64,000 bases of DNA, taken from contig OZ024757.1 of the NCBI GenBank assembly GCA_964016885.1, positions 42,842,001 through 42,906,000 of the forward strand, read 5' to 3'. The notes under the pieces were generated by a model. The model was given only the letters and a program-made list of their open reading frames with translations. It was not told the origin of the DNA and made no database searches. This document shows positions 1-64,000 of the stretch, in pieces. A program made the position numbers and the translations under genes. This DNA is from Eledone cirrhosa (Eukaryota). Numbering within the stretch: the first letter of the stretch is position 1; each line of letters starts with the position of its first letter.

Positions 1-596
1 CCGCCGAACCGTAGTGCGCATGCGCCAAGGCCGCCGGACCAGACTGCGCATGCGCCAAGGCCGCCGGACCGTAGTGCGCATGCGCCAAGGCCGCCTGACC
101 GTAGTGCGCATGCGTCAAGGCCGCAGTACCGAACTGCGTATGGGCTAAGGCCGCCGGACCGTACTGCGCATGCGCCAAGGCCGCCGGACCATACTGCGCA
201 TGCGCCAAGGCCGCCGTACAGCGCACTACGGTCTGGCATCATTGGCGCATGCGCACTACGGCCCGGCGGCCTTGGCGCATGCGCAGTACGGCCCGGCAAC
301 CTTGGCGTATGCGCACTACGGTCTGTCGGCCTTGGCGCATGCGCACTACTGTCCGGCGGCCTTGGCGCATGCGCAGTACGGTCCAGCGGCCTTGACGCAT
401 GCGCACTACGGTTCGGCGGCCTTGGCGCATGCGTACAACGGTCCGGCGGCCTTGGCGCATGCGCACTACGGTCTGGCAGCATTGGCGCATGCGCACTACG
501 GTCCGCCGTCCTTGGCGCATGCGCACTACGGTCCGCCGTCCTTGGCGCATGCGCACTACGGTCCGACGTCCTTGGCGCATGTGCAGTACGGTCCGG

Positions 597-1175
597 ATGA
601 CTTTTTAGCCATTTTAAGCCTTTATGTTGCCATATTTAGCCATTTTTGAGTCATTTTAGTAATTTATGATGCAGTTTTTACCATTTTAGAGCCATTTATA
701 GTCATTTTAGACGTTTCAGTCGTGTTAGAGTCATTCTAGTCAATTATGATACGGTTTTAGCATTTTAGTCGTTGATGATGACGTTTTAGTCATTTATGAT
801 GCAGATTCAGCCATTCTGTTGTAATATGGCAACATAAATGATTAAATGGCCCTAAAATGGCTAAAACAGCATCATATTTGACAAAAGTGACTCGTAAATG
901 AGTAAAACGGTATCATAAATGACTAAAATAACTCTAGAAAGGCTACTACAGCATCATAAATGATTAAAATGACTCTAAAACGACTAAAACGTCTAAAATG
1001 ACAAAAATGGCTTTAATATAGCTTAAACTGCATCTTAAATGACTAAAACTACTAAAATGACTCCGAAATGGCTAAAATGACACTAAAGTGGCTAAAACGG
1101 ACTGTTAAATTGCTAAATTGTCTCTAAAATGGCTAAAACGTCTTCATAAATAAATAAAATGGCTAAAACGTGGGT
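597..1175. repeat. AT-rich spacer type A, copy 1 (internally inverted, degenerate ~41-bp repeat)
   Basis: T-tract left half, A-tract right half; motifs TAAAATGACT/TAAAATGGCT; near-identical to 7004-7604 and 9107-9674. Confidence 0.95.
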
Positions 1176-4100
1176 GCCGGACCGTAGTGCGCATGCGCCA
1201 AGGCCGCCGGACCGTAATGCGCATGCGCCAAGGCCGCCGGATCGTAGTGCGCATGCGCCAAGGCCGACTGACTGTACTGCGCATGTGTCATCGTCGCAGT
1301 ACCGAACTGCGCATGCGGTAAGGCCGCCGGACCGTACTGCGCATGCGCCAAGGCCGCCGGACCGTAGTGCGCAGGCGCCAAGGCCGCCGGACCGTAGTGC
1401 GCATGCACCAAGGCCGCCTGAGTGTACTGCGCATGCATCAAGGTCCCAGTACCGTACTGCGCAAAGGCCGCCGGACAGTAGTGCGCATGCGCCAGAGCCG
1501 CCGAACCGTAGTGCGCATGCGCCAAGGCCGCCCGACCGTAGTGCGCATGGGCCAAAGCCGCCCGACCGTACTGCGCATGCGCTAAGTCCGTAGTACCGTA
1601 CTGCGCATGCTACAAGGCCGCAGTACCGTACTGCGCATGCGACAAGGCCGCAGTACCGTAGTGCGCATGCGCCAAGGCCACCGGACCGTAGTGCGCATGA
1701 GCCAAGGCCGCCGGACCGTACTGCGCATGCGCCAAGCCCGCCGGACCGTAGTGCGCATGCGCCAGAGCCGCCGAACCGTGGTGCACATGCGCCAAGCCCG
1801 CCGGACCGTAGTGCGCATGCGCCAAGCCCGCCGGACCGTAGTGCGCATGCGCCAAGGCCGCCTGACTGTACTGCGCATGCGTCAAGGTCCCAGTACCGAA
1901 CTGCTCATGCGCTAAGGCCACCGGACCGTACTGCGCATGCGCCAAGGCCGCCGGACCTTAGTGCGCATGCGCCAGAGCCGCCGAACCGTGGTGTGCATGC
2001 GCCAAGGCCGCCGGACCATACTGCGCATGCGCCAAAGCCGCCTGACTGTACTGCGCATGCGCCAAGGCCGCCTGACTGTACTGCGCATGCGACAAGGCCG
2101 CCGGACCGTTGTGCGCATGCGCCAAGGCCACCTAAATGTACTGCGCATGGTCGCAGTACCGAACTGCGCATGCGCCAAGGCCGCCGGACCGTACTGCGAA
2201 TGCGCCAAGGCCGCCGGACCGTAGTGCGCATGCGCCAAAGCCGCCGAACCGTAGTGCGCATGCGCCAAGGCCGCCGGACCATACTGCGCACGCATGCGCC
2301 GCGGCCGCAGGACCGTAGTGCGCATGCGCCAAGGCCGCCTGACTGTACTGCGCATGCGGCAAGACCACAGTACCGAACTGCGCATGCACTAAGGCCGCAG
2401 GACCGTAGTGCGCATGCGCCAAGGCCGCCTAACTGTACTGCGCATGCGTCAAGGTCGCAGTGCCGAACTGCGCATGCGCTAAGGCCGCCGGACCGTACTG
2501 CGCATGCGCCAAGGCCGCCGGACCGTAGTGCGCATGCGCCAAAGCCGCCGAACCGTAGTGCGCATGCGCCAAGGTCGCCGGACCTGACTGCGCATGCGCC
2601 GCGGCCGCCGGACCGTACTGCGCATGCCCCAAGGCCGCCTGGTTGTACTGCGCATGCCCCAAGGCCGCCTGGTTGTACTGCTCATGCCCCAAGGCCGCCC
2701 GACCGTAGTGCGCATGCGCCAAGGCCGCCCGACCGTAGTGCGCATGCGTCAAGGTCGCAGTACCGAATTGCGCATGCACTAAGGCCGCCGGACCGAACTG
2801 CGTATGGGCTAAGGCCGCCGGACCGTACTGCGCATGCGCCAAAGCCGCCGGACCGTAGTGCGCATGCGTCAAGGTCGCAGTACCGAACTGCGCATGCGCT
2901 AAGGCCGCCGGACCGTACTGCGCATGCGCCAAGGCCGCCGGACCGTACTGCGCATGCCCCAAGGCCGCCAGGTTGTACTGCGCATGCCCAAGGCCTTCCG
3001 ACCGTAGTGCGCATGCGCCAAAGCCGCCGAACCGTAGTGCGCATGCGCCAAGGCCGCCTAACTGTACTGCGCATGCGTCAAGGTCGCAGTACCGAACTGC
3101 GCATGCGCCAAGGCCGCCGGACCGTACTGCGAATGCGCCAAGGCCGCCGGACCGTAGTGCGCATGCGCCGAACCGTAGTGCGCATGCGCCAAGGCCGCCG
3201 GACCATACTGCGCACGCATGCGCCGCGGCCGCAGGACCGTAGTGCGCATGCGCCAAGGCCGCCGGACCGTAGTGCGCATGCGCCAAGGCCGCCGGACCGT
3301 AGTGCGCATGCGCCAAGGCCGCCTGACTGTACTGCGCATGCGTCAAGGCCGCAGTACCGAACTGTGTATGGGCTAAGGCCGCCGGACCGTACTGCGCATG
3401 CGCCAAGGCCGCCGGACCGTAGTGCGCATGCGCCAAGGCCGCCGGACCATACTGCGCATGCGCCAAGGCCGCCGGACCGTAGTGCGCATGCGCCAAGGCC
3501 GCCTAACTGTACTGCGCATGCGTCAAGGTCGCAGTACCGAACTGCGCATGCGCCAAGGCCGCCGGACCGTAGTGCGCATGCGCCAAGGCCGCCGGACCGT
3601 AGTGCGCATGCTCCAAGGCCGCCTGGTTGTACTGCGCATGCGCCAAGGCCGCCGGATCGTAGTGCGCATGCGCCAAGGCCGCCTGACTGTACTGCGCATG
3701 CGTCAAGGCCGCAGTACCGAACTGCGTATGGGCTAAGGCCGCCGGACCGTAATGCGCATGCGCCAAGGCCGCCGGACCGTAGTGCGCATGCGTCAAGGTC
3801 GCAGTACCGAACTGCGCATGCGCCAAGGCCGCCGGACCTGACTGCGCATGCGCCGCGGCCGCCGAACCGTACTGCGCATGCCCCAAGGCCGCCTGGTTGT
3901 ACTGCGCATGCCCCAAGGCCGCCTGGTTGTACTGCGCATGCCCCAAGGCCGCCCGACCGTAGTGCGCATGCGCCAAGGCCGCCCGACCGAGGTGCGCATG
4001 AGTCGAGGTCGCAGTACCGAACTGCGCATGCGCTAAGGCCGCCGGACCGTACTGCGCATGCGCCAAGGCAGCCGGACCGTAGTGCGCATGCGCCCAAGCC

Positions 4101-7003
4101 GCCGGACCATACTGCGCATGCGCCAAGGCCGCCGAACCGTCGTGCCCATGCGCCAAGACCGCCGGACCGTACTGCGCATGCGCCAAGGCCGCTGAACCGT
4201 ACTGCGCATGCCCCAAAGCCGCCGACCCGTAGTGCGCATGCACCAAGGCCACTGGACCGTACTGGGCATGCTCTAAGACCGTCGGACCGCAGTGCGCATG
4301 CCCCAAGGCCGTCGGACCGTAGTGCGCATGTGCCAAGGCCGCCGAACCGTACTGCGCATGCGCCAAGGCCGCCGAACCGTACTGCGCATGCGCCAAGGCC
4401 GCCGGACCGTAGTGCGCATGCGCCAAAGACGCCGAACCGTCGTGCCCATGCGCCAAGACCGCCGGACCGTACTGCGCATGCCCCAAAGCCGCCGACCCGT
4501 AGTGCGCATGTACCAAGGCCACCGGACCGTACTGCGCGTGCTCTAAGACCGTCGGACCGCAGTGCGCATGCCCCAAGGCCGCCAGACCGTAGTGCGCATG
4601 CGCCAAGGCCGCCAGACCGTAGTGCGCATGCGCCAAGGCCGCCGAACCGTACTGCTCATGCGCCAAGGCCGCCGAACCGTACTGCGCATGCGCCAAGGCC
4701 GCCGAACCGTACTGCGCATGCGCCAAGGCCGCCGAACCGTACTGCGCATGCGCCAAAGCCGCCGAACCGTAGTGCGCATGCGCCAAAGCCGCTGGACCGT
4801 AGTGCGCATGCGCCAAGGCCACTGGACCGTACTGCGCATGTACCAAGGCCGCCGTCGTAGTGCGCATGCGCCAAGGCCGCCGGAACTTTGTGCGCATGCG
4901 CCAAGGCCGCCGGAACTTTGTGCGCATGCGCCAAGGCCGCCGGACCGTAGTGCGCATGCGCCAAGGCCGCCGGACCATAGTGCGCATGCGCCAAGGCCGC
5001 CGGAGCATACTGCACATGCGCCAAGGCCGCCGGACCGTAGTGCGCATGCGCCAAGGCCACCGGACCGTAGTGCGCATGAGCCAAGGCCGCCGGACCGTAG
5101 TGCGCATGCGCCAGAGCCGCCGAACCGTGGTGCACATGCGCCAAGCCCGTCGGACCGTAGTGCGCATGCGCCAAGCCCGCCGGACCGTAGTGCGCATGCG
5201 CCAAGGCCGCCTGACTGTACTGCGCATGCGTCAAGGTCCCAGTACCGAACTGCGCATGCGCTAAGGCCACCGGACCGTACTGCGCGTGCGCCAAGGCCGC
5301 CGAACCGTGGTGTGCATGCGCCAAGGCCACCGGACCATACTGCGCATGCGCCAAAGCCGCCTGACTGTACTGCGCATGCGCCAAGGCCGCCTGACTGTAC
5401 TGCGCATGCGACAAGGCCGCCGGACCGTAGTGCGCATGCGCCCAAGCCGCCGGACCATACTGCGCATGCGCCAAGGCTGCCGGACCGTAGTGCGCATGCG
5501 TCAAGGCCGCAGTACCGAACTGCGCATGCGCTAAGGCCGCAGTACCGAACTGCGCATGCGCCAAGGCCGCCGTACCGTACTGCGCATGCGCCAAGGACGC
5601 CGGACCGTAGTGCGCATGCGCCAAAGACGCCGAACAGTCGTGCCCATGCGCCAAGACCGCCGGACCGTACTGCGCATGCCCCAAAGCCGCCGACCCGTAG
5701 TGCGCATGCACCAAGGCCACCGGACCGTACTGCGCATGCTCTAAGACCGTCGGACCGTAGTGCGCATGCCCCAAGGCCGTCGGACCGTAGTGCGCATGCG
5801 CCAATGCCGCCAGACCGTAGTGCGCATACGCCAAGGCCGCCGAACCCTACTGCGCATGCGCCAAGGCCGCCGAACCGTACTGCGCATGCGCCAAGGCCGC
5901 CGAACCGTACTGCGCATGCGCCAAGGCCGCCGAACCGTACTCCGCATGCGCCAAAGCCGCTGGACCGTAGTGCGCATGCGCCAAGGCCACTGGACCGTAC
6001 TGCGCATGTACCAAGGCCGCCGTCGTAGTGCGCATGCGCCAATGCCGCCGGACCTTTGTGCGCATGCGGTACGGTGGCCTTGGCGCATGCGCACTAAGGT
6101 CTAACGGCCTTGGCGCATGCGCACTACGGTTCGGCGGCTTTGACGCACACGGACTACGTTCCGTCAGATTTGGCGCACGCACACTACGGTCCGGCGGTCT
6201 TGGCGCATGCGCACTACGGTCCGGCGACCATGCCGCATGCGCACTACGTTCCGGTGGCCTTGGCACATGCGCAGTACCGTCCGGCGGCTTTTGCGCATGC
6301 GCACTACGGTCTGGCAGCCTTGGCGCATGCGCACTACGGTCCAGCGGCCTTGGCGCATGCGCACTACGTTCCGGTGGCCTTGGCGCATGCGCAGTACGGT
6401 CCAGTGGCCTTGGCGCATGCGTAGTAAGGTCCGGCGCCCTTAGCGCATGCGCAGTACGGTCCGGCAGCCTTGGCGCATGCGCACTAAGGGCCAGCGGTCT
6501 TTGCGCATGCGCACAACGGTCCGGTGGCCTTGGTGCATGCGCACTACGGTCCGGCGGCCTTGGCGCATGCGCACTAAGGTCCGGCGGCTTTGGTGCATGC
6601 GCACTACGGTCTGGCATCATTGGCGCATGCGCACTACGGTCCGGCGGCCTTGGCGCATGCGCAGTACGGCTGGCAACCTTGGCGTATGCGCACTACGGTC
6701 TGTCGGCCTTGGCGCATGCGCACTACTGTCCGGCGGCCTTGGCGTATGCGCAGTACGGTCCAGCGGCCTTGGCGCATGCGCACTACGGTTCGGCGGCCTT
6801 GGCGCATGCGCACTACGGTTCGGCGGCCTTGGCGCATGCGTACAACGGTCCGGCGGCCTTGGCGCATGCGCACTACGGTCTGGCAGCATTTGCGCATGCG
6901 CACTAAGGTCCGGCGGCCTTGGCGCATGCGCACTACGGTCCGACGTCCTTGGCGCATGCGCACTACGGTCCGACGTCCTTGGCGCATGTGCAGTACGGTC
7001 CGG

Positions 7004-7604
7004 ATGACTTTTTGGCCATTTTAAGCCTTTATGTTGCCATATTTAGCCATTTTTGAGTCATTTTAGTAATTTATGATGCAGTTTTTACCATTTTAGAGCC
7101 ATTTATAGTCATTTTAGACGTTTCAGTCGTGTTAGAGTCATTCTAGTCAATTATGATACGGTTTTAGCATTTTAGTCGTTGATGATGACGTTTTAGTCAT
7201 TTCTGATGCAGTTTCAGCCATTCTGTTGTAATATGGCAACATAAATGATTAAACGGCCCTAAAATGGCTAAAACAGCATCATATTTGACAAAAATGACTC
7301 GTAAATGAGTAAAACGGTATCGTAAATGACTAAAATAACTCTAGAAAGGCTACTACAGCATCATAAATGATTAAAATGACTCTAAAACGACTAAAACGTC
7401 TAAAATGACAAAAATGGCTTTAATATAGCTTAAACTGCATCTTAAATGACTAAAACTACTAAAATGACTCCGAAATGGCTAAAAAAAACATCATAAATGG
7501 CTAAAATGACACTAAAGTGGCTAAAACGGACTGTTAAATTGCTAAATTGTCTCTAAAATGGCTAAAACGTCTTCATAAATAAATAAAATGGCTAAAACGT
7601 GGGT
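7004..7604. repeat. AT-rich spacer type A, copy 2
   Basis: Same sequence and same flanking junctions as 597-1175, plus a 22-bp extra segment AAAAAAAACATCATAAATGGCT at ~7481-7502. Confidence 0.95.
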
Positions 7605-9106
7605 GCCGGACCGTAGTGCGCATGCGCCAAGGCCGCCGGACCGTAATGCGCATGCGCCAAGGCCGCCGGACCGTAGTGCGCATGCGCCAAGACCGACTGA
7701 CTGTACTGCGCATGTGTCATCGTCGCAGTACCGCACTGCGCATGCGGTAAGGCCGCCGGACCGTACTGCGCATGCGCCAAGGCCGCCGGACCGTAGTGCG
7801 CAGGCGCCAAGGCCGCCGGACCGTAGTGCGCATGCACCAAGGCCGCCTGAGTGTACTGCGCATGCATCAAGGTCCCAGTACCGTACTGCGCATGCGCAAA
7901 GGCCGCCGGACAGTAGTGCGCATGCGCCAGAGCCGCCCGACCGTACTGCGCATGCGCTAAGTCCGTAGTACCGTACTGCGCATGCTACAAGGCCGCAGTA
8001 CCGTACTGCGCATGCGACAAGGCCGCAGTACCGTAGTGCGCATGCGCCAAGGCCACCGGACCGTAGTGCGCATGAGCCAAGGCCGCCGGACCGTACTGCG
8101 CATGCGCCAAGCCCGCCGGACCGTAGTGCGCATGCGCCAGAGCCGCCGAACCGTGGTGCACATGCGCCAAGCCCGCCGGACCGTAGTGCGCATGCGCCAA
8201 GGCCGCCTGACTGTACTGCGCATGCGTCAAGGTCCCAGTACCGAACTGCGCATGCGCTAAGGCCACCGGACCGTACTGCGCATGCGCCAAGGCCGCCGGA
8301 CCGTAGTGCGCATGCGCCAGAGCCGCCGAACCGTGGTGTGCATGCGCCAAGGCCGCCGGACCATACTGCACATGCGCCAAAGCCACCTGACTGTACTGCG
8401 CATGTGCCAAGGCCGCCTGACTGTACTGCGCATGCGACAAGGCCGCCAGACCGTAGTGCGCATGCGCCAAGACCACCTAACTGTACTGCGCATGCGTCAA
8501 GGTCGCAGTACCGAACTGCGCATGCGCCAAGGCCGCCGGACCGTACTGCGCATGCGCCAAGGCCGCCGGACCGTAGTGCGCATGCGCCAAAGCCGCCGAA
8601 CCGTAGTGCGCATGCGCCAAGGCCGCCGGACCATACTGCGCACGCATGCGCCGCGGCCGCAGGACCGTAGTGCGCATGCGCCAAGGCCGCCTGGTTGTAC
8701 TGCGCATGCGCCAAGGCCGCCGGACCGCATGCGCACTAAGGTCCGGCGGCTTTGGTGCATGCGCACTACGGTCTGGCATCATTGGCGCATGCGCACTACG
8801 GTCCGGCGGCCTTGGCGCATGCGCAGTACGGCCCGGCAACCTTGGCGTATGCGCACTACGGTCTGTCGGCCTTGGCGCATGCGCACTACTGTCCGACGGC
8901 CTTGGCGCATGCGCAGTACGGTCCAGCGGCCTTGACGCATGCGCACTTCGGTTCGGCGGCCTTGGCGCATGCGTACAACGGTCCGGCGGCCTTGGCGCAT
9001 GCGCACTACGGTCTGGCAGCATTGGCGCATGCGCACTACGGTCCGACGTCCTTGGCGCATGCGCACTACGGTCCGACGTCCTTGGCGCATGTGCAGTACG
9101 GTCCGG

Positions 9107-9674
9107 ATGACTTTTTAGCCATTTTAAGCCTTTATGTTGCCATATTTAGCCATTTTTGAGTAATTTTAGTAATTTATGATGCAGTTTTTACCATTTTAGA
9201 GCCATTTATAGTCATTTTAGACGTTTCAGTCGTGTTAGAGTCATTCTAGTCAATTATGATACGGTTTTAGCATTCTAGTCATTGATGATGACGTTTTAGT
9301 CATTTATGATGCAGTTTCAGCCATTCTGTTGTAATATGGCAACATAAATGATTAAATGGCCCTAAAATGGCTAAAACAGCATCATATTTGACAAAAATGA
9401 CTCGTAAATGAGTAAAACGGTATCATAAATGACTAAAATAACACTAGAAAGGCTACTACAGCATCATAAATGATTAAAATGACTCTAAAACGTCTAAAAT
9501 GACAAAAATGGCTTTAATATAGCTTAAACTGCATCTTAAATGACTAAAACTACTAAAATGACTCCGAAATGGCTAAAATGACACTAAAGTGGCTAAAACG
9601 GACTGTTAAATTGCTAAATTGTCTCTAAAATGGCTAAAACGTCTTCATAAATAAATAAAATGGCTAAATAAAAT
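9107..9674. repeat. AT-rich spacer type A, copy 3
   Basis: Same as 597-1175 with a 9-bp deletion (CGACTAAAA) near 9490 and a rearranged right junction. Confidence 0.95.
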
Positions 9675-9874
9675 GTCCGTAGTACCGTACTGCGCATGCT
9701 ACAAGGCCGCAGTACCGTACTGCGCATGCGACAAGGCCGCAGTACCGTAGTGCGCATGCGCCAAGGCCACCGGACCGTAGTGCGCATGAGCCAAGGCCGC
9801 CGGACCGTACTGCGCATGCGCCAAGCCCGCCGGACCGTAGTGCGCATGCGCCAGAGCCGCCGAACCGTGGTGCA

Positions 9875-17272: not shown

Positions 17273-17503
17273 GTCATCAAAAAGGACTAACATGGCCGAA
17301 ATGTCATCATGTATGACTGAAATTACAACAAAATGGCTAAGACGGCATAATAAATGACTAAAGTGACAATAAAATGCTAAAACCGTATCATAATTGACTA
17401 GAATGACTCTAACACGACTGAAACGTCTAAAATAACTATAAATGGCTCTAAAATGGTTAAACTGCATCATAAATTACTAAAATAACTCAAAATGGCTAAA
17501 TAT
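17273..17503 (+). repeat. AT-rich spacer type B, truncated by 35 bp at one end
   Basis: Matches 28810-29075 but ends at ...GGCTAAATAT|GGACTGTACTG; reverse complement of 53900-54131. Confidence 0.93.
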
Positions 17504-42900: not shown

Positions 42901-43458
42901 AGACCGTAGTGCGCATGCTCCAAGGCCGCCGGATCTTACTGCGCATGCCCCAAGGCCGTCGGATGGTAGTGCGCATGTGCCAAGGCCGCCAGACCGTAGT
43001 GCGCATGCGCCAAGGCCGCCGAACCGTACTGCGCATGCGCCAAGGCCGCCGGATCTTTGTGCGCATGCGGTTCGGTGGCCTTGGCGCATGCGCACTACTG
43101 TCCGGCGACCTTCCCGCATGCGCACTACGTTCCGGCGGCCTTGGCGCATGCGCACTACGTTCCGGTGGCCTTGGCGCATGCGCAGTACTGTCCAGTGGCC
43201 TTGGCGCATGCGCAGTAAGGTCCGGCAGCCTTAGCGCATGCGCACTACGGTACAGTGGCCTTATCGCATGCGCAGTAAGGTCCGGCGGCCATGGCGCATG
43301 CGCACTAAGGGCCAGCGGTCTTTGCGCATAGGCACAACGGTCCGGCGGCCTTCGCGCCTGCGCACTACGGTCCGGCGGCTTTGGTGCATGCGCACTACGT
43401 TCCGGTGGCCTTGGCGCATGCGCAGTACTGTCCAGTGGCCTTGGCGCATGCGCAGTAA
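36941..43458 (+). repeat. 6.5-kb segment directly duplicated at 57483-64000 (offset 20,542; runs off window end)
   Basis: Constant 20542 offset (37125/57667, 39141/59683, 40820/61362, 43261/63803); only scattered SNVs seen. Confidence 0.93.
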
Positions 43459-45635
43459 GGTCCGGCAGCCTTAGCGCATGCGCAGTACGTTCCGGCGGCC
43501 TTGGCGCATGCGCACGAAGGGCCATCGTTCTTTGCGCATGCGCACAACGGTCCGGCGGCCTTGGTGCATGCGCACTACGGTCCGGCGGCCTTGGCGCATG
43601 CGCACTACGGTCCGGCGGCTTTGGTGCATGCGCACTACGGTCTAGCAGCATTGGGGCATGCGCACTACAGCCCGGCGGCCTTGGCGCATGCGCAGTACGG
43701 CCCGGCGACCTTGGCGCATGCGCCCTACGGTCTGGCGGCCTTGGCGCACGCGCACTACGGTCCGGCGGTCTTGGCGCATGCGCACTACGGTCCGGCGACC
43801 TTGCCGCATGCGCACTACGTTCCGGTGGCCTTGGCACATGCGCAGTACGGTCCGGTGGCTTTGGCGCATGCGCACTACGGTCTGGCAGACTTGGCGCATG
43901 CGCACTACGGTCCGATGGCCTTGGCGCATGCGCACTACGTCCTGCTGGCCTTGGCGCCTGCACAGTACAGTCCAGTGGCCTTGGCGCATGCGCAGTAAGG
44001 CCCGGCGGCCTTAGCGCATGCGCAGTAAGGTCCGGCGGCCATGGCGCATGCGCACTAAGGGCCAGCGGTCTTTGCGCATGCGCACAATGGTACGGCGGCC
44101 TTGGCGCATGCGCACTACGTTCCGATGGCCTTGACGCATGCGCAGTACTGTCCAGTGGCCTTGGCGCATGCGCAGTAAGGTCCGGCGGCCTTAGCGCATG
44201 CGCAGTACGTTCCGGCGGCCTTGGCGCATGTGCACTAAGGGCCATCGTTCTTTGCGCATGCGCACAACGGTCCGGCGGCCTTGGTGCATGCGCACTACGG
44301 TCCGGCGGCCTTGGCGCATGCGCACTACGGTCCGGCGGCTTTGGTGCATGCGCACTACGGTCTAGCAGCATTGGAGCATGCACACTACAGCCCGGCGGCC
44401 TTGGCGCATGCGCAGTACGGCCCGGCGACCTTGGCGCATGCGCACTACGGTCTGGCGGCCTTGGCGCACGCGCACTACGGTCCGGCGGTCTTGGCGCATG
44501 CGCACTACGGTCCGGCGGCCTTGCCGCATGCGCACTACGTTCCGGTGGCCTTGGCACATGCGCAGTACGGTCCGGTGGCTTTGGCGCATGCGCACTACGG
44601 TCTGGCAGACTTGAAGCATGCGCACTACGGTCCGATGGCCTTGGCGCATGCGCACTACGTCCTGGTGGCCTTGGCGCATGCGCAGTACAGTCCAGTGGCC
44701 TTGGCGCATGCGCAGTGAGGTCCGGCGGCCTTAGCGCATGCGCAGTAAGGTCCGGCGGCCATGGCGCATGCGCACTAAGGGTCAGCGGTCTTTGCGCATG
44801 CGCACAACGGTACGGCGGCCTTGGCGCATGCACACTACGGCCCGGCGGCCTTGGCGCCTGCACACTACGGTCCGGCGGCTTTGGTGCATGCGCACTACGG
44901 TCCGGCGGCGCGCACTACGTTCCGGTGGCCTTGGCGCATGCGCAGTACGCTCCAGTGGCCTTGGCGCATGCGCAGTAAGGTCCGACGGCTTTGGCGCATG
45001 CGCACTATGGTCTTTCAGTTTTGGCGCATGCGCACTACGGTCCGGCGGCCTTCGCGCATGCGCACTACGTTCCGGCGGCCTTGGCGCATGCGCACTACGT
45101 TCCGGTGGCCTTTGCGCATGCGCAGTACGGTCCAGCGGCCTTGGCGCATGCGCACAACGGTACGGCGGCCTTGGCGCATGCGCACTACGTTCCGGTGGCC
45201 TTGGCGCATGCGCAGTACTGTCCAGTGGCCTTGGCGCATGTGCAGTAATGTCCGGCGGCCTTAGCGCATGCGCAGTACGTTCCGACGGCCTTGGCGCATG
45301 CGCACTAAGGGCCATCGTTCTTTGCGCATGCGCACAACGGTCCGGCGGCCTTGGTGCATGCGCACTACGGTCCGGCGGCCTTAGCGCATGCGCAGTTCGG
45401 TACTGCGACCTTGACGCATGCGCAGTACAGTCAGGTGGCCTTGGCGCATGCGCACAACGGTCCGGCGCCCTTGGCGCATGCGCAGTATGGTCCGACGGCC
45501 TTGGCGCATGTGCACTATGTATCGGCGGCCTTGGCGCATGCGCACTACGGTTAGGCGGCTTTGGCGCATGCGCACTACGATCAGGCCGTCTCGGCGCGTG
45601 CGCAGTACGGTCTGGCGGTCTTGGCGCATGGGCAC

Positions 45636-45901
45636 GTCATCAAAAAGGACTAACATGGCCGAAATGTCATCATGTATGTCTGAAATTACAACAAAATGGC
45701 TAAGACGGCATAATAAATGACTAAAGTGACAATAAAATGCTAAAACCGTATCATAATTGACTAGAATGACTCTAACACGACTGAAACGTCTAAAATGACT
45801 ATAAATGGCTCTAAAATGGTTAAACTGCATCATAAATTTCTAAAATAACTCAAAATGGCTAAATATGGCAACATAAAGGCTTAAAATGGCTAAAAAGTCA
45901 T
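45636..45901 (+). repeat. AT-rich spacer type B, full length
   Basis: Matches 28810-29075 (offset 16826), including the AAATTTCTAAAA variant. Confidence 0.95.
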
Positions 45902-48900
45902 CCGGACCGTACTGCACATGCTTCAAGGACTTCGGACCGTCGTGCGCATGCGCCAAGGCCTCCGAACCGTAGTGCGCATGCGCCAACGCCGCCGGACCGT
46001 AGTGCGCATGCGCCAAGGCCGCCGGACCGTAGTGCGCATGCGCCAAGGCCGCCAGACCGTAGTGCACATGCGCCAAGGCCGCCGGGCCGTACTGCGCATG
46101 CGCCAAGGCCGCCGGACCGTAGTGCGCATGCGCCAATGCTGCCAGACCGTAGTGCGCATGCACCAAAGCTGCCGGACCGTAGTGCGCATGCGCCAAGGCC
46201 GCCGGACCGTTGTGCGCATGCGCCAAGGCCACTGGACCGTAGTGCGCACGCGCCAATGCCATCGGACCGTAGTGCGCATGCGCCAAGTCTGCCAGACCGT
46301 AGTGCGAATGCGCTAAAGCCACCGGACCGTACTGCGCATGTGCCAAGGCCACCGGAACGTAGTGCGCATGCGGCAAGGTCGCCGGACCGTAGTGCGCATG
46401 CGCCAATGCTGCCAGACCGTAGTGCGCATGCGCCAAGGCCGCCGTGCCGTAGTGTGCATGCGCCAAGGCCGCCGGACCGTTGTGCGCATGCGCAAAGACC
46501 GCTGGCCCTTAGTGCGCATGCACCAAGGCCGCCGGACCGTTGTGCGCATGCGCAAAGAACAATGGCCCTTAGTGCGCATGCGCCAAGGCCGCCGTAACGT
46601 ACTGCGCATGCGCTCAGGCCGCCGGACCTTACTGCGCATGCGCCAAGGCCACTGGACAGTACTGCGCATGCGTCAAGGCCACCGGAAAGTAGTGCGCATG
46701 CGCCAAGGCCGCCGTACCGTTGTGCGCATGCGCAAAGACCGCTGGCCCTTAGTGCGCATGCGCCATGGCCGCCGGACCTTACTGCGCATGCGCCAAGGCC
46801 ACTGGACTGTACTGCGCATGCGCCAAGGCCACCAGGACGTAGTGCGCATGCGCCAAGGCCATCGGACCGTAGTGCGCATGCGCCAAGTCTGCCAGACCGT
46901 AGTGCGCATGCGCCAAAGCCACCGGACCGTACTGCGCATGTGCCAAGGCCACCGGAACGTAGTGCGCATGCGGCAAGGTCGCCGGACCGTAGTGCGCATG
47001 CGCCAAGACCGCCGGACTGTAGTGCGCGTGCGCCAAGGCCGCCAGACCGTAGTGCGCATGCGCCAAGGTCGCCGGGCCGTACTGCGCATGCGCCAAGGCC
47101 GCCGGGCTTTAGTGCGTATGCCCCAATGCTGCTAGACCGTAGTGCGTATGCACCAAAGCCGCCGGACCGTAGTGCGCATGCGCCAAGGCCGCCGGACCGT
47201 AGTGCGCATGCACCAAGGCCGCCGGACCGTTGTGCGCATGCGCAAAGAACGATGGCCCTTAGTGCGCATGCGCCAAGGCCGCCGGAACGTACTGCGCATG
47301 CGCTAAGGCTGTCGGACCTTACTGCGCATGCGCCAAGGCCACTGGACAGTACTGCGCATGCGCCAAGGCCACCGGAACGTAGTGCGCATGCGCCAAGGCC
47401 GCCGTACCGTTGTGCGCATGCGCCAAGGCCGCTGGACCGTACTGCGCATGCGCAAAGGCCACCGGAACGTAGTGTGCATGCGCCAAGGCCGCCGGAACGT
47501 AGTCCGCATGCGCGAAGGCCGCCGGACCGTAGTGCGCATGCGCCAAGACTGACAGACCATAGTGCGCATGCACCAAAGCCGCCGGACCTTACTGCGCATG
47601 CGCCAAGGCCACTGGAGCGTACTGCGCATGCGCCAAGGCCACCGGAACGTAGTGCGCATGCGCCAAGGCCGCCGCACCGTAGTGCGCATGCGCCAAGGCT
47701 GCCAGACCGTAGTGCGCATGCGCCAAAGCCGCCGGACCGTACTGCGCATGTGCCAAGGCCACCGGAACGTAGTGCGCATGCGGGGAGGTCGCCGGACCGT
47801 AGTGCGCATGCGCCAAGGCCGCCGAACCGCATGCGCACAAAGGTCCGGTGGCCTTGGCGCATGCGCAGTACGGTTCGGCCGCCTTGGCGCATGCGCACTA
47901 CGGTCCGGCGGCCTTAGCGCATGCGCAGTTCGGTACTGGGACCTTGACGCATGCGCAGTACAGTCAGTCGGTCTTGGCGCATGCACACTACGGTCCGGCG
48001 GCCTTGGCGCATGCGCAGTACGGTTCGGCGGCTTTGGCGCATGCGCACTACGGTCCGGCGGCCTTGGCACATGCGCAGTACGGTCCGGCGGCCTTAACGC
48101 ATGCGCAGTTCGGTACTGCGACCTTGACGCATGCGCAGTACAGTCAGGCGGCCTTGGCGCACGCGCAGTACGGTCCGGCGGCTTTAGCGCATGCGCAGTT
48201 CGGTACTGCGACCTTGACGCATGCGCAGTACAGTCAGGTGGCCTTGGCGCATGCGCACTACGGTCCGGCGTCTTTGGCGCATGCGCACTACGGTCCGGCG
48301 GCCCTGGCGCATGCGCAGTATGGTCCGGCGGCCTTGGCGCATGCGCACTACGGTTCGGCGGCTCTGGCGCATGCGCACTACGGTCCGGCGGTCTTGGTGC
48401 ATGCGCAGTACGGTACTGGGACCTTGATGCATGCGCAGTACAGTCAGGCGGCCTTGGCGCATGCGCACTACGGTCCGGCGGCCTTGGCGCATGCGCAGTA
48501 CGGTCCGGCGGCCTTAGCGCATGCGCAGTTCGGTACTGCGACCTTGACGCATGCGCAGTACAGTCAGGTGGCCTTGGCGCATGCGCAGTACGGTCCGGCG
48601 GCCTTAGCGCATGCGCAGTTCGGTACTGCGACCTTGACGCATGCGCAGTACAGTCAGGCGGCCTTGGCACATGCGCACTACGGTCCGGCGGCCTTGGCGC
48701 ATGCGCAGTATGGTCCGACGGCCTTGGCGCATGTGCACTATGTATCGGCGGCCTTGGCGCATGCGCACTACGGTTCGGCGGCTTTGGCGCATGCGCACTA
48801 CGGTTCGGCGGCTTTGGCGCATGCGCACTACGATCCGGCGGCCTTGGCGCATGCGCACTACGGTCCGGCGGACTTGGCGCATGCGCACTACGGTCATATG

Positions 48901-49310
48901 GCCTTGGCGCATGCGCACTACGGTACTGCGGCCTTGTCGCATGCGCAGTACGGTACTGCGGACTTGGCGCATGCGCAGTACGGTCAGGCGGCTTTGGCCC
49001 ATGCGCACTACGGTCCGGCGGGCTTGGCGCATGCGCAGTATGGTCCGGCGACCATGACGCATGCGCACTACGGTTCGGCGGCTCTGGCGCATGCGCACTG
49101 CGGGCCGGCGGCCTTGGCGCATGCGCAGTACGGTCCGGCGGCCTTAGCGCATGCGCAGTTCGGTACTGGGACCTTGACGCATGCGCAGTACAGTCAGGCG
49201 GCCTTGGCGCATGCGCACTACGGTCCGGCGGCCTTGGCGCATGCGCACTACGGTCCGGCGGCTTTGGCACATGCGCAGTACGGTCCGGCGGCCTTAACGC
49301 ATGCGCAGTT

Positions 49311-52300
49311 CGGACCGTAGTGCGCATGCGCCAAGGCCGCCGGACCGTAGTGCGCATGCACCAAGGCCGCCGGACCGTTGTGCGCATGCGCAAAGAACGA
49401 TGGCCCTTAGTGCGCATGCGCCAAGGCCGCCGGAACGTACTGCGCATGCGCTAAGGCTGCCGGACCTTACTGCGCATGCGCCAAGGCCACTGGACAGTAC
49501 TGCGCATGCGCCAAGGCCACCGGAACGTAGTGCGCATGCACCAAAGCCGCCGGACCGTAGTGCGCAGGCGCCAAGGCCGCCGGACCGTTGTGCGCATGCG
49601 CAAAGACCGCTGGCCCTTAGTGCGCATGCGCCATGGCCGCCGGACCTTACTGCGCATGCGATAAGGCCACTGGACCGTAGTGCGCATGCGCTAAGGCTGC
49701 CGGACCTTACTGCGCATGCGCCAAGGCCACTGGACAGTACTGCGCATGCGCCAAGGCCACCGGAACGTAGTGCGCATGCGCCAAGGCCGCCGGAACGTAG
49801 TGCGCATGCGGGAAGGTCGCCGGACAGTAGTGCGCATGCGCCAAGGCCACCGAACCGCATGCGCACAAAGATCCGGCGGCCTTGGCGCATGCGCAGTACG
49901 GTTCGGCGGCCTTGGCGCATGCGCACTACGGTCTGGCGGCCTTGGCACATGCGCACTACCATCCGACGGCCTTGGGGCATGCGCAGTAAGATCCGGCGGC
50001 CTTGGAGCATGCGCACTACGGTCTGGCGGCTTTGGCACATGCGCACTACGGTCCGACGGCCTTGGGGCATGCGCAGTACGATCCGGCGGTCTTGGTGCAT
50101 GCGCAGTACCGTCCGGTGGCCTTGGCGCATGCGCACTACGGTGCAGCTGCTTTGGCGCATGCGCAGTACGGTTCGGCGGCCTTAGCGCATGCGCACTACG
50201 GTCCGGCGGGCTTGGCACATGCGCAGTATGGTCCGGCGACCTTGACGCAGGCGCACTACGGTTCGGCGGCTCTGGCGCATGCGCACTGCGGTCCGGCGGC
50301 CTTGGCGCATGCGCAGTACGGTCCGGCGGCCTTAGCGCATGCGCAGTTCGGTACTGCGACCTTGACGCATGCGCAGTACAGTCAGGCGGCCTTGGCACAT
50401 GCGCACTACGGTCCGGCGGCCTTGGCGCATGCGCAGTATGGTCCGACGGCCTTGGCGCATGTGCACTATGTATCGGCGGCCTTGGCGCATGCGCACTACG
50501 GTTCGGCGGCTTTGGCGCATGCGCACTACGATCCGGCGGCCTTGGCGCATGCGCACTACGGTCATATGGCCTTGGCGCATGCGCACTACGGTACTGCGGC
50601 CTTGTCGCATGCGCAGTACGGTACTGCGGACTTGGCGCATGCGCAGTACGGTCAGGCGGCTTTGGCCCATGCGCACTACGGTCCGGCGGGCTTGGCGCAT
50701 GCGCAGTATGGTCCGGCGACCTTGACGCATGCGCACTACGGTTCGGCGGCTCTGGCGCATACGCACTGCGGTCCGGCGGCCTTGGCGCATGCGCAGTACG
50801 GTCCGGCGGCCTTAGCGCATGCGCAGTTCGGTACTGGGACCTTGACGCATGCGCAGTACAGTCAGGCGGCCTTGGCGCATGCGCACTACGGTCCGGCGGC
50901 CTTGGCGCATGCGCAGTACGGTCCGGCGGCCTTAACGCATGCGCAGTTCGGTACTGCGACCTTGACGCATGCGCAGTACAGTCAGGCGGCCTTGGCGCAT
51001 GCGCATTACGATCCGGCGGCCTTAGCGCATGCGCAGTTAAGTACTGCGACCTTGACGCATGCGCAGTACAGTCAGGTGGCCTTGGCGCATGCGCACTACG
51101 GGCCCGCGTCTTTGGCGCATGCGCACTACGGTCCGGCAGCCTTGGCGCATGCGCAGTATGGTCCGGCGGCCTTGGCGCATGAGCACTACGGTTCGGCGGC
51201 TCTGGCGCATGCGCACTACGGTCCGGCGGTCTTGGTGCATGCGCAGTACGGTACTGGGACTTTGATGCATGCGCAGTACAGTCAGGCGGCCTTGGCGCAT
51301 GCGCACTACGGTCCGGCGGTCTTGGCGCATGCGCAGTACGGTGCGCAAAGAACGATGGCCCTTAGTGCGCATGCGCCAAGGCCGCCGGAACGTACTGCGC
51401 ATGCGCTAAGGCCGCCGGACCTTACTGCGCATGCGCCAAGGCCACTGGACAGTACTGCGCATGCGTCAAGGCCACCGGAACGTAGTGCGCATGCGCCAAG
51501 GTTGCCGTACCATTGTGCGCATGCGCAAAGACCGCTGGCCCTTAGTGCGCATGCGCCATGGCCGCCGGACCTTACTGCGCATGCGCTAAGGCCACTGGGC
51601 CTTACTGCGCATGCGCCAAGGCCACTGGACTGTATTGTGCAGGCGCCAAGGCCAGCAGGACGTAGTGCGCATGCGCCAAGGCCATCGGACCGTAGTGCGC
51701 ATGCGCCAAGTCTGCCAGACCGTAGTGCGCATGCGCCAAAGCCACCGGACCGTACTGCGCATGTGCCAAGGCCACCGGAACGTAGTGCGCATGCGGCAAG
51801 GTCGCCGGACCGTAGTGCGCATGCGCCAAGACCGCCGGACCGTGGTGCGCGTGCGCCAAGGCCGCCAGACCGTAGTGCGCATGCGCCAAGGTCGCCGGGC
51901 CGTACTGCGCATGCGCCAAGGCCGCCGGGCTGTAGTGCGCATGCCCCAATGCTGCTAGACCGTAGTGCGCATGCACCAAAGCCGCCGGACCGTAGTGCGC
52001 ATGCGCCAAGGCTGCCGGACCGTAGTGCGCATGCACCAAGGCCGCCGGACCGTTGTGCGCATGCGCCAGAGCCGCCGAACCGTAGTGCGCATGCGTCAAG
52101 GTCCCAGTACCGAACTGCGCATGCGCTAAGGCCGCCGGACCGTACTGCGCATGCGCCAAGGCCGCCGGACCGCAGTGCGCATGCGCCAGAGCCGCCGAAC
52201 CGTAGTGCGCATGCGTCAAGGTCGCCGGACCATACAGCGCATGCGCCAAGCCCGCCGGACCGTAGTGCGCATGGGCCAAAGCCGCCTGACCGTACTGCGC

Positions 52301-53630
52301 ATGCGCCAAGTCCGCAGTACCGTACTGCGCATGCGACAAGGCCGCAGTACCGTAGTGCGCATGCGCCAAGGCCATATGACCGTAGTGCGCATGCGCCAAG
52401 GCCGCCGGATCGTAGTGCGCATGCGCCAAAGCCGCCGAACCGTAGTGCGCATGCGCCAAGGCCGCCGATACATAGTGCACATGCGCCAAGGCCGTCGGAC
52501 CATACTGCGCATGCGCCAAGGCCGCCGGACCGTAGTGAGCATGTGCCAAGGCCGCCTGACTGTACTGCGCATGCGTCAAGGTCGCAGTACCGAACTGCGC
52601 ATGCGCTAAGGCCGCCGGACCGTACTGCGCATGCGCCAAGGCCGCCGGACCGCAGTGCGCATGCGCCAGAGCCGCCGAACCGTAGTGCGCCTGCGTCAAG
52701 GTCGCCGGACCATACTACGCATGTGCCAAGCCCGCCGGACCGTAGTGCGCATGCGCTAAGGCCGCCGAACCGTACTGCGCATGCGCCAAAGCAGCTGCAC
52801 CGTAGTGCGCATGCGCCAAGGCCACCGGACGGTACTGCGCATGCACCAAGACCGCCGGATCGTACTGCGCATGCCCCAAGGCCGTCGGACCGTAGTGCGC
52901 ATGTGCCAAAGCCGCCAGACCGTAGTGCGCATGCTCCAAGGCCGCCGGATCTTACTGCGCATGCCCCAAGGCCGTCGGATGGTAGTGCGCATGTGCCAAA
53001 GCCGCCAGACCGTAGTGCGCATGCGCCAAGGCCGCCGAACCGTACTGCGCATGCGCCAAGGCCGCCGGATCTTTGTGCGCATGCGGTTCGGTGGCCTTGG
53101 CGCATGCGCACTACTGTCCGGCGACCTTCCCGCATGCGCACTACGTTCCGGCGGCCTTGGCGCATGCGCACTACGTTCCGGTGGCCTTGGCGCATGCGCA
53201 GTACTGTCCAGTGGCCTTGGCGCATGCGCAGTAAGGTCCGGCAGCCTTAGCGCATGCGCACTAAGGGCCAGCGGTCTTTGCGCATGCGCAGTAAGGTCCG
53301 GCGGCCATGGCGCATGCGCACTAAGGGACAGCGGTCTTTGCGCATGCGCACAACGGTCCGGCGGCCTTGGCGCCTGCGCACTACGGTCCGGCGGCTTTGG
53401 TGCATGCGCACTACGTTCCGGTGGCCTTGGCGCATGCGCAGTACTGTCCAGTGGCCTTGGCGCATGCGCAGTAAGGTCCGGCAGCCTTAGCGCATGCGCA
53501 GTACGTTCCGGCGGCCTTGGCGCATGCGCACTAAGGGCCATCGTTCTTTGCGCATGCGCACAACGGTCCGGCGGCCTTGGTGCATGCGCACTACGGTCCG
53601 GCGGCCTTGGCGCATGCGCACTACGGTCCG
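49311..53630. repeat. Large inverted repeat: arms 49311-50855 and 52086-53630, ~1.23-kb spacer
   Basis: Constant coordinate sum 102941 (49476/53465, 49716/53225, 50332/52609, 50790/52151); monomer variants mirror each other. Confidence 0.88.
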
Positions 53631-53899
53631 GCGGCTTTGGTGCATGCGCACTACGGTCTAGCAGCATTGGGGCATGCGCACTACAGCCCGGCGGCCTTGG
53701 CGCATGCGCACTACGGTCCGGCGACCTTGCCGCATGCGCACTACGTTCCGGTGGCCTTGGCACATGCGCAGTACGGTTCGGTGGCTTTGGCGCATGCGCA
53801 CTACGGTCTGGCAGACTTGGCGCATGCGCACTACGGTCCGATGGCCTTGGCGCATGCGCACTACGTCCTGGTGGCCTTGGCGCATGCGCAGTACAGTCC

Positions 53900-54131
53900 A
53901 TATTTAGCCATTTTGAGTTATTTTAGTAATTTATGATGCAGTTTAACCATTTTAGAGCCATTTATAGTCATTTTAGACGTTTCAGTCGTGTTAGAGTCAT
54001 TCTAGTCAATTATGATACGGTTTTAGCATTTTATTGTCACTTTAGTCATTTATTATGCCGTCTTAGCCATTTTTGTTGTAATTTCAGACATACATGATGA
54101 CATTTCGGCCATGTTAGTCCTTTTTGATGAC
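53900..54131 (-). repeat. AT-rich spacer type B, truncated form, inverted
   Basis: Reverse complement of 17273-17503 with the same junctions. Confidence 0.93.
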
Positions 54132-55858: not shown

Positions 55859-55912
55859 ATATTTAGCCATTTTGAGTTATTTTAGTAATTTATGATGCAG
55901 TTTAACCATTTT
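55859..55912 (-). repeat. 54-bp minimal AT spacer, inverted
   Basis: Reverse complement of 32201-32254; flanks ~55.2-56.0 kb mirror ~32.1-32.9 kb (coordinate sum 88113). Confidence 0.93.
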
Positions 55913-61900: not shown

Positions 61901-64000
61901 ATGCGCAGTACGCTCCAGTGGCCTTGGCGCATGCGCAGTAAGGTCCGGCGGCTTTGGCGCATGCGCACTATGGTCTGTGAGTCTTGGCGCATGCGCACTA
62001 CGGTCCGGCGGCCTTGGCGCATGCGCACTACGTTCCGGCGGCCTTGGCGCATGCGCACTACGTTCCGGTGGCCTTTGCGCATGCGCAGTACGGTCCAGCG
62101 GCCTTGGCGCATGCGCACAACGGTACGGCGGCCTTGGCGCATGCGCACTACGGCCCGGTGGCCTTGACGCATGCGCAATACTGTCCAGTGGCCTTGGGGC
62201 ATGCGCACTACAGTCCAGTGGCCTTGGCGCATGCGTAATAAGGTCCGGCGGCCATGGCGCATGCGCACTAAGGGCCAGCGGTCTTTGCGCATGCGCACAA
62301 CGGTACGGCGGCCTTGGCGCATGCGCACTACGTTCTGGTGGCCTTGACGCATGCGCAGTACTGTCCAGTGGCCTTGGCGCATGCGCAGTAAGGTCCGGCG
62401 GCCTTAGCGCATGCGCAGTACGTTCCGGCGGCCTTGGCGCATGCTCACTAAGATGGCCATCGTTCTTTGCGCATGCGCACAACGGTCCGGCGGCCTTGGT
62501 GCATGCGCACTACGGTCCGGCAGCCTTGGCGCATGCGCACTACGGTCCGCTGGCTTTGGTGCATGCGCACTACGGTCTAGCAGCATTGGGGCATGCGCAC
62601 TACAACCCGGCGGCCTTGGCGCATGCGCAGTACGGCCCGGCGACCTTGGCGCATGCGCACTACGGTCTGGCGGCCTTGGCGCACGCGCACTACGGTCCGG
62701 CGGTCTTGGCGCATGCGCACTACGGTCCGGCGACCTTGCCGCATGCGCACTACGTTCCGGTGGCCTTGGCACATGCGCAGATGGACCGTAGTGCGCATGC
62801 GCCAAGGCCACCGGACCGTACTGCACATGCGCCAAGGACGCCGGACCGTAGTGCGCATGCGCCAAAGCCACCGGACCGTAGTGCGCATGCGACAATGCCG
62901 CAGTACCGTAGTGCGCATGCGCCAAGGCCACATGACCGTAGTGCGCATGCGCCAAGGCTGCCGGACCGTAGTGCGCATGCGCCAAGGCCGCCGGATCGTA
63001 GTGCGCATGCGCCAAAGCCGCCGAACCGTAGTGCGCATGCGCCAAGGCCGCCGGACCGTAGTGCGCATGCGCCAAGGCCGCCTGACTGTACTGCGCATGC
63101 GTCAAGGTCCCAGTACCGAACTGCGCATGCGCTAAGGCCGCCGGACCGTACTGCGTATGCGCCAAGGCCGCCGGACCGCAGTGCGCATGCGCCAGAGCCG
63201 CCGAACCGTAGTGCGCCTGCGTCAAGGTCGCCGGACCATACTGCGCATGTGCCAAGCCCGCCGGACCGTAGTGCGCATGCGCTAAGGCCGCCGAACCGTA
63301 CTGCGCATGCGCCAAAGCAGCTGCACCGTAGTGCGCATGCGCCAAGGCCACCGGACGGTACTGCGCATGCACCAAGACCGCCGGATCGTACTGCGCATGC
63401 CCCAAGGCCGTCGGACCGTAGTGCGCATGTGCCAAGGCCGCCAGACCGTAGTGCGCATGCTCCAAGGCCGCCGGATCTTACTGCGCATGCCCCAAGGCCG
63501 TCGGATGGTAGTGCGCATGTGCCAAGGCCGCCAGACCGTAGTGCGCATGCCCCAAGGCCGCCGAACCGTACTGCGCATGCGCCAAGGCCGCCGGATCTTT
63601 GTGCGCATGCGGTTCGGTGGCCTTGGCGCATGCGCACTACTGTCCGGCGACCTTCCCGCATGCGCACTACGTTCCGGCGGCCTTGGCGCATGCGCACTAC
63701 GTTCCGGTGGCCTTGGCGCATGCGCAGTACTGTCCAGTGGCCTTGGCGCATGCGCAGTAAGGTCCGGCAGCCTTAGCGCATGCGCACTACGGTACAGTGG
63801 CCTTATCGCATGCGCAGTAAGGTCCGGCGGCCATGGCGCATGCGCACTAAGGGCCAGCGGTCTTTGCGCATGCGCACAACGGTCCGGCGGCCTTCGCGCC
63901 TGCGCACTACGGTCCGGCGGCTTTGGTGCATGCGCACTACGTTCCGGTGGCCTTGGCGCATGCGCAGTACTGTCCAGTGGCCTTGGCGCATGCGCAGTAA

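What the first reader, a model, noticed from the sequence alone, without database searches (positions are those of the whole stretch)
1..64000. Satellite that flips strand on average every ~1.5 kb (43 switches in 64 kb)
Seen: 22 F and 22 R blocks, strictly alternating, from ~95 bp to 4.9 kb. Established: most satellites are long head-to-tail arrays, and unequal crossover or rolling-circle amplification does not by itself create inversions. Inference: this array grows by copying multi-kb patches that already contain inversion junctions, in both orientations, producing a nested mosaic of palindromes.
Basis: partly seen in the sequence, partly recalled or inferred. Interest (0 to 1): 0.75.

Follow-up and report, generated by a model that had tools for sequence, protein, structure and literature searches.

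The report
Satellite grown from a two-way unit
A 30-base repeat fills one 670-kilobase spot in a mollusc genome and reverses direction about every 1.5 kilobases, likely because one small two-way unit was copied again and again in both directions rather than because hundreds of separate inversions happened, a layout described so far in flour beetles at a coarser scale.

Summary
In detail: 22 forward and 22 reverse blocks (92-4,917 bp) of a 30-bp GC-rich satellite, 43 switches. The window is a tenth of a single ~670-kb array in a mollusc genome, with 438 switches, one per 1.5 kb. The switches are few events copied many times: 21 of 22 forward-to-reverse switches in the window (147 of 219 in the array) are one junction in either orientation; 158 of 219 reverse-to-forward switches carry pieces of a second, AT-rich satellite, a nested deletion series of a 1.4-kb spacer kept in ~2.8-kb units at both old edges. 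One fresh 726-bp fold-back at the monomer's palindromic core lies 32 kb upstream. Short-read contigs support the junction and its copy number; no long reads were seen. Closest known: Tribolium macro-dyad satellites; this is denser, single-locus and in another phylum. The scan's earlier notes show only single flips in other genomes.

The parts
1..64000 (.). Part of a ~670-kb array (G000:C18:42,694,597 to about 43,365,700) of a 30-bp GC-rich satellite in alternating F and R blocks, mixed with an AT-rich satellite
   Evidence: single locus in the assembly by exact 28-mer count
1176..1205 (+). One monomer equal to the array consensus GCCGGACCGTAGTGCGCATGCGCCAAGGCC; self-complementary core GCGCATGCGC at 1189-1198
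8698..8757 (+). Junction J1 (F-to-R, ...GAACCG|CATGCGCAC...), + orientation; also at 14593, 19099, 24351, 31033, 33072, 35310, 41087, 47829, 49857, 54669, 61629
6039..6098 (-). Junction J1 in the opposite orientation; also at 21329, 26333, 38245, 43069, 53085, 57021, 58787, 63611
   Evidence: spanned by a short-read contig
200..245 (+). The one other F-to-R junction in the window (221/222), 9 copies in the array, probably a shortened J1
   Evidence: derivation inferred
597..1175 (.). AT-rich spacer, 579 bp, T-rich then A-rich half with its own inversion centre
7004..7604 (.). AT-rich spacer, 601 bp, same class
   Evidence: R-to-spacer joint crossed by RAD reads of two other samples
9107..9676 (.). 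AT-rich spacer, 570 bp, same class, other right joint
17273..17503 (+). 231-bp spacer (positions 1194-1425 of the 1,460-bp edge spacer)
20657..20710 (+). 54-bp spacer (positions 1371-1425 of the edge spacer); again at 32201-32254
28810..29075 (+). 266-bp spacer (positions 1194-1460 of the edge spacer); again at 35709-35974 and 45636-45901
53900..54131 (-). 232-bp spacer, inverted copy of the 231-bp class
55859..55912 (-). 54-bp spacer, inverted copy
22430..22485 (+). Spacer-less R-to-F junction, 24 copies in the array; also 39163, 59705 and inverted at 51341
25475..25530 (+). Spacer-less R-to-F junction, 6 copies; also 42237, 62779. Further types at 49309 (2 copies) and 35213 with 57113 (5 copies)
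36941..53890 (+). Patch of 16,952 bp copied in tandem at 57483 and beyond the window, 99.7% identical
49311..50945 (+). Patch with J1, inverted copy at 51996-53630 (98.5%)
34280..35373 (+). Patch holding the 97-bp block and two switches, inverted copy at 56957-58050 (99.3%)

Best explanation
The array is a two-satellite composite whose switches are mostly copies of a few junctions, and it likely grew from one ~2.8-kb unit (forward block, junction J1, reverse block, AT-rich spacer with its own inversion centre) that is still present at both edges. Shown: one F-to-R junction dominates in both orientations; spacers form nested deletion series; junction-bearing patches are copied directly and inverted; block lengths between the same junctions differ by multiples of 30; edges are more diverse than the centre. 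Inferred: the unit was amplified in tandem; exchange in register between monomers resized blocks and, between oppositely oriented blocks, flipped or copied patches without making new junctions; deletions across existing switches made most other junction types; fold-back or template switching at the self-complementary core occasionally adds a new junction, and J1 itself would be such a core switch shortened by 7 bases. No function is needed to explain the pattern.
For: J1: 21 of 22 F-to-R switches in the window, 147 of 219 in the array, 97.3% identical to their consensus over 60 bp against 90% for monomers. Spacer at 158 of 219 R-to-F and 0 of 219 F-to-R switches. Shared joints give the chains 1,460 > 266 > 231 > 54 (and 140) and 1,460 > 601/579 > 570/472. 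Left-edge units of ~2.75-2.8 kb are 91-95% identical, and recur inverted at the right edge at 91-97%. Monomers with array-unique sequence: 28% and 25% at the edges, 0.6-1.6% in the three central zones. Direct and inverted patch copies, lengths congruent modulo 30 in most of the 22 largest groups. A single-copy palindrome with 726-bp exact arms and a 26-base loop at C18:42,808,806-42,810,283 mirrors J1 and switches inside the core; the unfolded template occurs 15 times elsewhere. 8 of 32 spacer-less junction types are in the register of the monomer's own symmetry axis (1 in 30 expected). Fold-back priming from inverted repeats of 5-9 bp is established in yeast mutants (PMC7999016, passages). 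Junction and copy number agree with short-read contigs.
Against: The order of events is read from one assembly. The symmetric junction types are not independent: collapsed by register they are 2 of 21 classes, about 0.7 expected. The 726-bp palindrome is single-copy and was not checked against reads. The two arms of the edge spacer are only about 67-72% alike, so the founding inversion is old and its mechanism is not shown. RAD reads of other samples cross satellite-spacer joints but barely cover J1. Changes fixed in common monomer variants avoid the motif TGCGC, which neutral copying does not predict. The 579/601 spacer class needs a rearrangement as well as deletion.
Confidence: 0.74

Rival explanations
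1. The dyads are kept by selection, as proposed for Tribolium: hairpins or loops at the switches, or a protein bound to the GCGCATGCGC core, organise chromatin or a centromere here.
For: Even switch density along 670 kb; edge-to-centre age gradient like layered centromere growth (10.1101/2021.07.12.452052 passages); rare variants hit the core as often as other sites but common ones do not (5.9 against 14.9 changes per site; heterogeneity p = 0.006; best window TGCGC, 0 of 150 null scans as extreme); GCGCATGCGC is the NRF1 consensus (PMC10810270 abstract) and an Nrf1 DNA-binding domain gene is in this genome.
Against: The repeat sits at one locus of one chromosome, not on all; junction conservation is explained by recent copying; spacers erode from 1,460 bp to none; the 12-base palindrome chosen beforehand is not significantly protected (p = 0.17); no chromatin or RNA data.
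Confidence: 0.12
2. The switches or their spacing are assembly products (fold-back reads, mis-joined or haplotype-duplicated pieces).
For: No long reads seen; a 72,213-bp tandem pair differs at only 270 of 60,140 sites and could be two haplotypes laid end to end; X1/X2 may be the assembly's own sample.
Against: No N in 764 kb; junctions are a few recurrent, asymmetric sequences, not read-length mirrors; J1 is in short-read contigs at the same depth per copy as plain satellite (4.9 against 4.8); satellite-spacer joints are in reads of two other samples. A false duplication would change array length, not switch density.
Confidence: 0.06
3. The unit is a Foldback-like transposon with long inverted arms of tandem repeats, multiplied in tandem at one site.
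For: The edge unit is an imperfect inverted repeat of tandem repeats; the AT satellite forms dispersed 12-30 kb two-armed loci.
Against: The 30-bp part is at one locus only; no shared terminal sequence at the ends of the array or of nine AT loci, and each AT locus has its own centre; no target-site duplication seen by eye.
Confidence: 0.05
4. The array is an inversion hot spot in which most switches are separate events.
For: 32 spacer-less junction types exist, several single-copy, one clearly fresh.
Against: 147 of 219 F-to-R switches are one junction; spacer joints are shared by descent.
Confidence: 0.03

Closest known systems
Macro-dyad symmetries of intermingled major and minor satellites in Tribolium madens, T. 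freemani, T. castaneum (PMC13081366: abstract, passages, section 7 part 1, section 10 part 2; 10.1101/2024.12.02.626372: passages)
   Same: Two intermixed satellites; orientation changes inside both; few, highly conserved inversion sites (98-99%) and transition zones; a minor-satellite cassette with its own inversion point; arms of unequal length.
   Different: There: 166-704 bp class monomers (225 and 704 bp in T. madens), median arrays 14 and 2.2 kb (T. madens) or 11.8 kb (T. freemani), mostly two subarrays each, multi-megabase regions on all chromosomes. Here: 30-bp monomer, a switch every 1.5 kb (several-fold denser by my estimate), one locus, a mollusc, an eroding cassette and a visible founder unit. 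The paper states the pattern was documented only in Tribolium.
Human HSat3B5 (chr9) and beta-satellite arrays (10.1101/2021.07.12.452052, passages)
   Same: Short-unit satellites with many strand switches: over 200 inversion breakpoints.
   Different: Spread over multi-megabase arrays (sizes recalled; the per-Mb figure was not visible); here 438 in 0.67 Mb. No second-satellite cassette in the passages read.
Fold-back priming at short inverted repeats (review PMC7999016, passages)
   Same: A short self-complementary stretch primes an inverted duplication with a small loop, as at C18:42,809,531-42,809,558.
   Different: Described for amplification in yeast mutants and cancer cells, not as a recurrent source of satellite switches.
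Foldback transposons of Drosophila and sea urchin TU elements (recalled, no call)
   Same: Long inverted arms built of short tandem repeats.
   Different: No shared termini, no dispersal of the unit, no target duplication seen.

Membership tests
Tribolium-type macro-dyad satellite region | Two intermingled satellites, major and minor | tested here: met
   30-bp GC repeat plus AT-rich 41-bp-type repeat that has arrays of its own
Tribolium-type macro-dyad satellite region | Orientation changes inside arrays of both satellites | tested here: met
   J1 in the 30-bp blocks; T-rich to A-rich centre in spacers of 570 bp and more; shorter spacers have lost it
Tribolium-type macro-dyad satellite region | [quoted passage not shown] | tested here: met
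   J1 147 of 219, 97.3%; shared joints
Tribolium-type macro-dyad satellite region | Multi-megabase regions on all chromosomes | tested here: not met
   One 0.67-Mb locus: genome-wide exact 28-mer count 920 + 394 equals the count in the fetched stretch
Tribolium-type macro-dyad satellite region | (Peri)centromeric position | not testable with these tools
   Array ends 0.57 Mb from a TTAGGG end of a 43.9-Mb contig; no CENP-A or FISH data
Satellite DNA (tandem array of a short non-coding unit) | Long tandem array, no structured-RNA family | tested here: met
   19,962 monomers; no Rfam match in window 1-10,000, the only part scanned; stop-free frames up to 1,172 codons reflect the repeat
True palindromic (fold-back or breakage-fusion-bridge) amplicon | Mirror-identical arms at the switches | tested here: not met
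   Arms no closer than random blocks; 1 of 441 junctions has arms over 100 bp
Foldback-type transposon | Shared terminal inverted sequence and dispersed copies | tested here: not met
Foldback-type transposon | Target-site duplication | tested here: inconclusive
   Left end abuts another 41-bp satellite, right end decays; read by eye

The most novel reading that the evidence does not exclude
A self-inverting satellite: the palindromic core of every monomer (the NRF1 consensus) lets neighbouring monomers pair and prime fold-back, and existing inverted blocks give the homology to return, so switches breed switches. The result is the first Tribolium-type dyad array outside beetles and a cluster of over 12,000 NRF1-type sites whose TGCGC half-site is under constraint.
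Probability: 0.25. Interest if true: 0.75.

Novelty: new variant of a known kind. Interest (0 to 1): 0.5.

Why it matters
Conserved inversion sites in Tribolium satellites were read as a hint of function, with spread by copying named as the alternative. This array keeps a readable genealogy (founder unit at the edges, nested spacer loss, inverted patches, one fresh fold-back) in which conserved junctions follow from descent alone, so it offers a test case for that question. It also extends the architecture to a second phylum, at a finer scale and at one locus small enough for single ultra-long reads to cover large parts.

Tried and rejected
Mirror-arm test: negative. Rfam scan of window 1-10,000: 0 matches. 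No RNA holder listed among sequencing runs; no evidence either way. A zinc-finger protein from the C27 locus searched to place the organism: only generic C2H2 hits at 39-57%, uninformative. Shared termini at AT loci: none. Shared inversion centre between the spacer and other AT loci: none by eye. Protection of the whole 12-base palindrome: not significant. Paper searches: two monomer 15-mers, 0 papers; six architecture terms, 0 papers with three of them; 'macro-dyad' set, 2 works, both Tribolium; two cephalopod-satellite searches, 20 listed each, none on this repeat by title and abstract start; template-switch set, 8 listed, none on point by listing. The library lacks most subscription journals, and supplements were not read. 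My first junction clustering split J1 by orientation; correct that. The spacer-less R-to-F joints and the 92/97-bp blocks remain unchecked against reads. Earlier notes near this window: none.

Full report
Observation. The window is a 65% GC tandem repeat with a 30-bp unit. A two-strand HMM gives 22 forward blocks, 22 reverse blocks and 11 AT-rich spacers, with blocks of 92 to 4,917 bp and 43 switches. Strict alternation is built into the definition of blocks; the informative fact is that every spacer sits at a reverse-to-forward switch.

Setting. The window is G000:C18:42,842,001-42,906,000 in a 3.0-Gb assembly. I fetched 700 kb around it. The array runs from 42,694,597 to about 43,365,700 with no N, 222 F and 220 R blocks and 438 switches, one per 1,526 bp. 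An exact 28-mer of the unit occurs 920 + 394 times in the genome and the same number of times in the fetched stretch, so this is the only locus for it in the assembly. The contig ends 0.57 Mb further on in 10 kb of TTAGGG. The genome holds 39 matches to the molluscan haemocyanin domain PF14830, seven per gene on C1: a mollusc, and probably an octopod (seven-unit criterion recalled, not tested).

Junction census. In the window 21 of 22 F-to-R switches are one sequence, J1, 12 times in one orientation and 9 in the other. In the array it is 147 of 219, 97.3% identical to its consensus over 60 bp, against 90% for monomers. Spacers lie at 158 of 219 R-to-F switches and at 0 of 219 F-to-R. They belong to a second, AT-rich satellite with a 41-bp-type unit that has arrays of its own. 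The short spacers map inside the 1,460-bp spacer of the array edge and share joints pairwise: 266 = 1194-1460, 231 = 1194-1425, 54 = 1371-1425. A deletion across an existing switch makes a new junction sequence without a new inversion, so most junction types need no inversion of their own (inference).

Founder unit. The left edge holds head-to-tail units of about 2.8 kb (F block, J1, R block, spacer with a T-rich and an A-rich half), 91-95% identical; the right edge holds the same unit inverted. Monomers unique in the array make up 28% and 25% at the two edges and 0.6-1.6% in the three central zones, so the edges are older and the centre, with the window, expanded recently. Such a unit has two inversion centres; plain tandem amplification of it yields alternating blocks at about 1.5-kb spacing.

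Growth. 96% of the window has a direct copy of 2 kb or more at 98% or more, up to 16,952 bp; 55% has an inverted copy of 1 kb or more, up to 2,784 bp; 98 of 112 such inverted matches contain a junction. Exact inverted copies in the array reach 4,397 bp. Blocks between the same two junction types vary in length by multiples of 30 in most groups, the mark of exchange in register. Arms beside a switch are no more alike than random blocks; the longest exact arm in the window is 29 bp. The array is full of loose inverted repeats, not of true palindromes.

New junctions. One exception lies 32 kb upstream of the window: 726-bp exact arms around a 26-base loop, with J1 mirrored in both arms, single-copy, switching inside the core; the same arm and loop continue normally at 15 other places. 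Core-to-core pairing of neighbouring monomers explains the loop. Fold-back priming from 5-9 bp inverted repeats is known in yeast mutants (PMC7999016, passages). Eight of 32 spacer-less junction types lie on the monomer's symmetry axis (p = 8e-6 if independent), but only 2 of 21 register classes, so the support is moderate. J1 reads as a core switch lacking 7 bases between two CG dinucleotides (from the sequence; inference). This palindrome was not checked against reads.

Reality check. A 95-base contig of short-read run X1 spans J1 at 6013-6106 without difference. Depth per assembled copy is 4.2-4.9 in X1 and 3.4-4.2 in X2 over 7 of the 16 listed pieces, the J1 piece giving 4.9 and plain satellite 4.8. 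These runs may be the assembly's own sample. RAD reads of two other samples cross R-to-spacer joints (327 and 152 molecules begin at 9058) and the 54-bp-spacer-to-F joint (31 and 14 reads), but hardly cover J1. No long reads were seen; a 72-kb tandem pair with 270 differences in 60,140 sites could be two haplotypes.

Possible constraint. Rare monomer variants hit positions 12-19 as often as others (15.6 against 18.1 per site); common variants do not (5.9 against 14.9). The best window is TGCGC, 0 of 150 null scans as extreme, but the 12-base palindrome chosen beforehand gives p = 0.17. GCGCATGCGC is the NRF1 consensus and TGCGC its half-site (PMC10810270, abstract); the genome has an Nrf1-domain gene; 63% of 19,589 monomers hold TGCGCATGCGC. 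This is a lead only; singletons may include sequencing errors.

Comparison. Tribolium madens and T. freemani have two intermingled satellites with macro-dyad symmetries, few conserved inversion sites and a minor-satellite cassette with its own inversion point; the authors say the pattern is documented only in Tribolium. This array works like that but fails one defining feature (all chromosomes, multi-megabase) and its centromeric status is unknown. Human HSat3B5 and beta satellite hold over 200 breakpoints. No paper in the library holds the monomer 15-mers; other searches showed no closer case by listing.

Verdict. Interest 0.5: dense, well-resolved and in a new phylum, with no evidence of function yet.

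Noticed in passing
G000:C23:539-556k, C15:5.973-5.986M, C13:45.757-45.786M, C15:1.002-1.026M, C20:31.111-31.126M, C15:40.603-40.619M, C27:322-349k, C18:42.653-42.668M (L091-L113, L079-L084, L010-L011): The AT-rich spacer family forms dispersed 12-30 kb two-armed loci. Of 15 loci examined (picked from the first 100 of 413 matches, favouring two-strand ones), 8 have a gap-free T-rich to A-rich centre, each with its own junction and arms 75-87% alike; 2 more have an N gap at the centre; 1 A-to-T switch has both arms over 1 kb. A fixed polarity would fit two-ended extension or twin priming.
   Followed up: partly
L118 (G000:C18:41,881,688-41,889,988): An AT-satellite stretch with 10 strand switches, most 0.1-0.7 kb apart, some junctions repeated: possibly a small parallel to the array.
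   Followed up: no
L025:6806-8283 (G000:C18:42,808,806-42,810,283): Single-copy palindrome with 726-bp exact arms and 26-base loop, centred between two monomer cores.
   Followed up: partly
window 1188-1192 and every monomer: TGCGC half of the NRF1 consensus is depleted of common but not rare changes.
   Followed up: partly
G000:C18:43,143,960-43,276,000 (L052-L065): 72,213-bp tandem pair at 99.55% identity, real duplication or two haplotypes; also a ~145-kb-offset copy of window 1-38,000.
   Followed up: partly
L013-L014 (G000:C18:42,685,717-42,694,595): A third, unrelated 41-bp satellite (219 copies, 90% match) abuts the left end of the array.
   Followed up: no
G000:C18:42,773,373-42,986,036: Eleven 20-bp reverse micro-blocks between two monomer cores, one event copied.
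   Followed up: partly
L080:2215-3471 and 7703-8881: C2H2 zinc-finger array frames beside the C27 AT-satellite locus.
   Followed up: partly
G000:C26:21.93-22.02M: Two haemocyanin genes in opposite orientation with matching scores, suggesting a recent inverted duplication.
   Followed up: no
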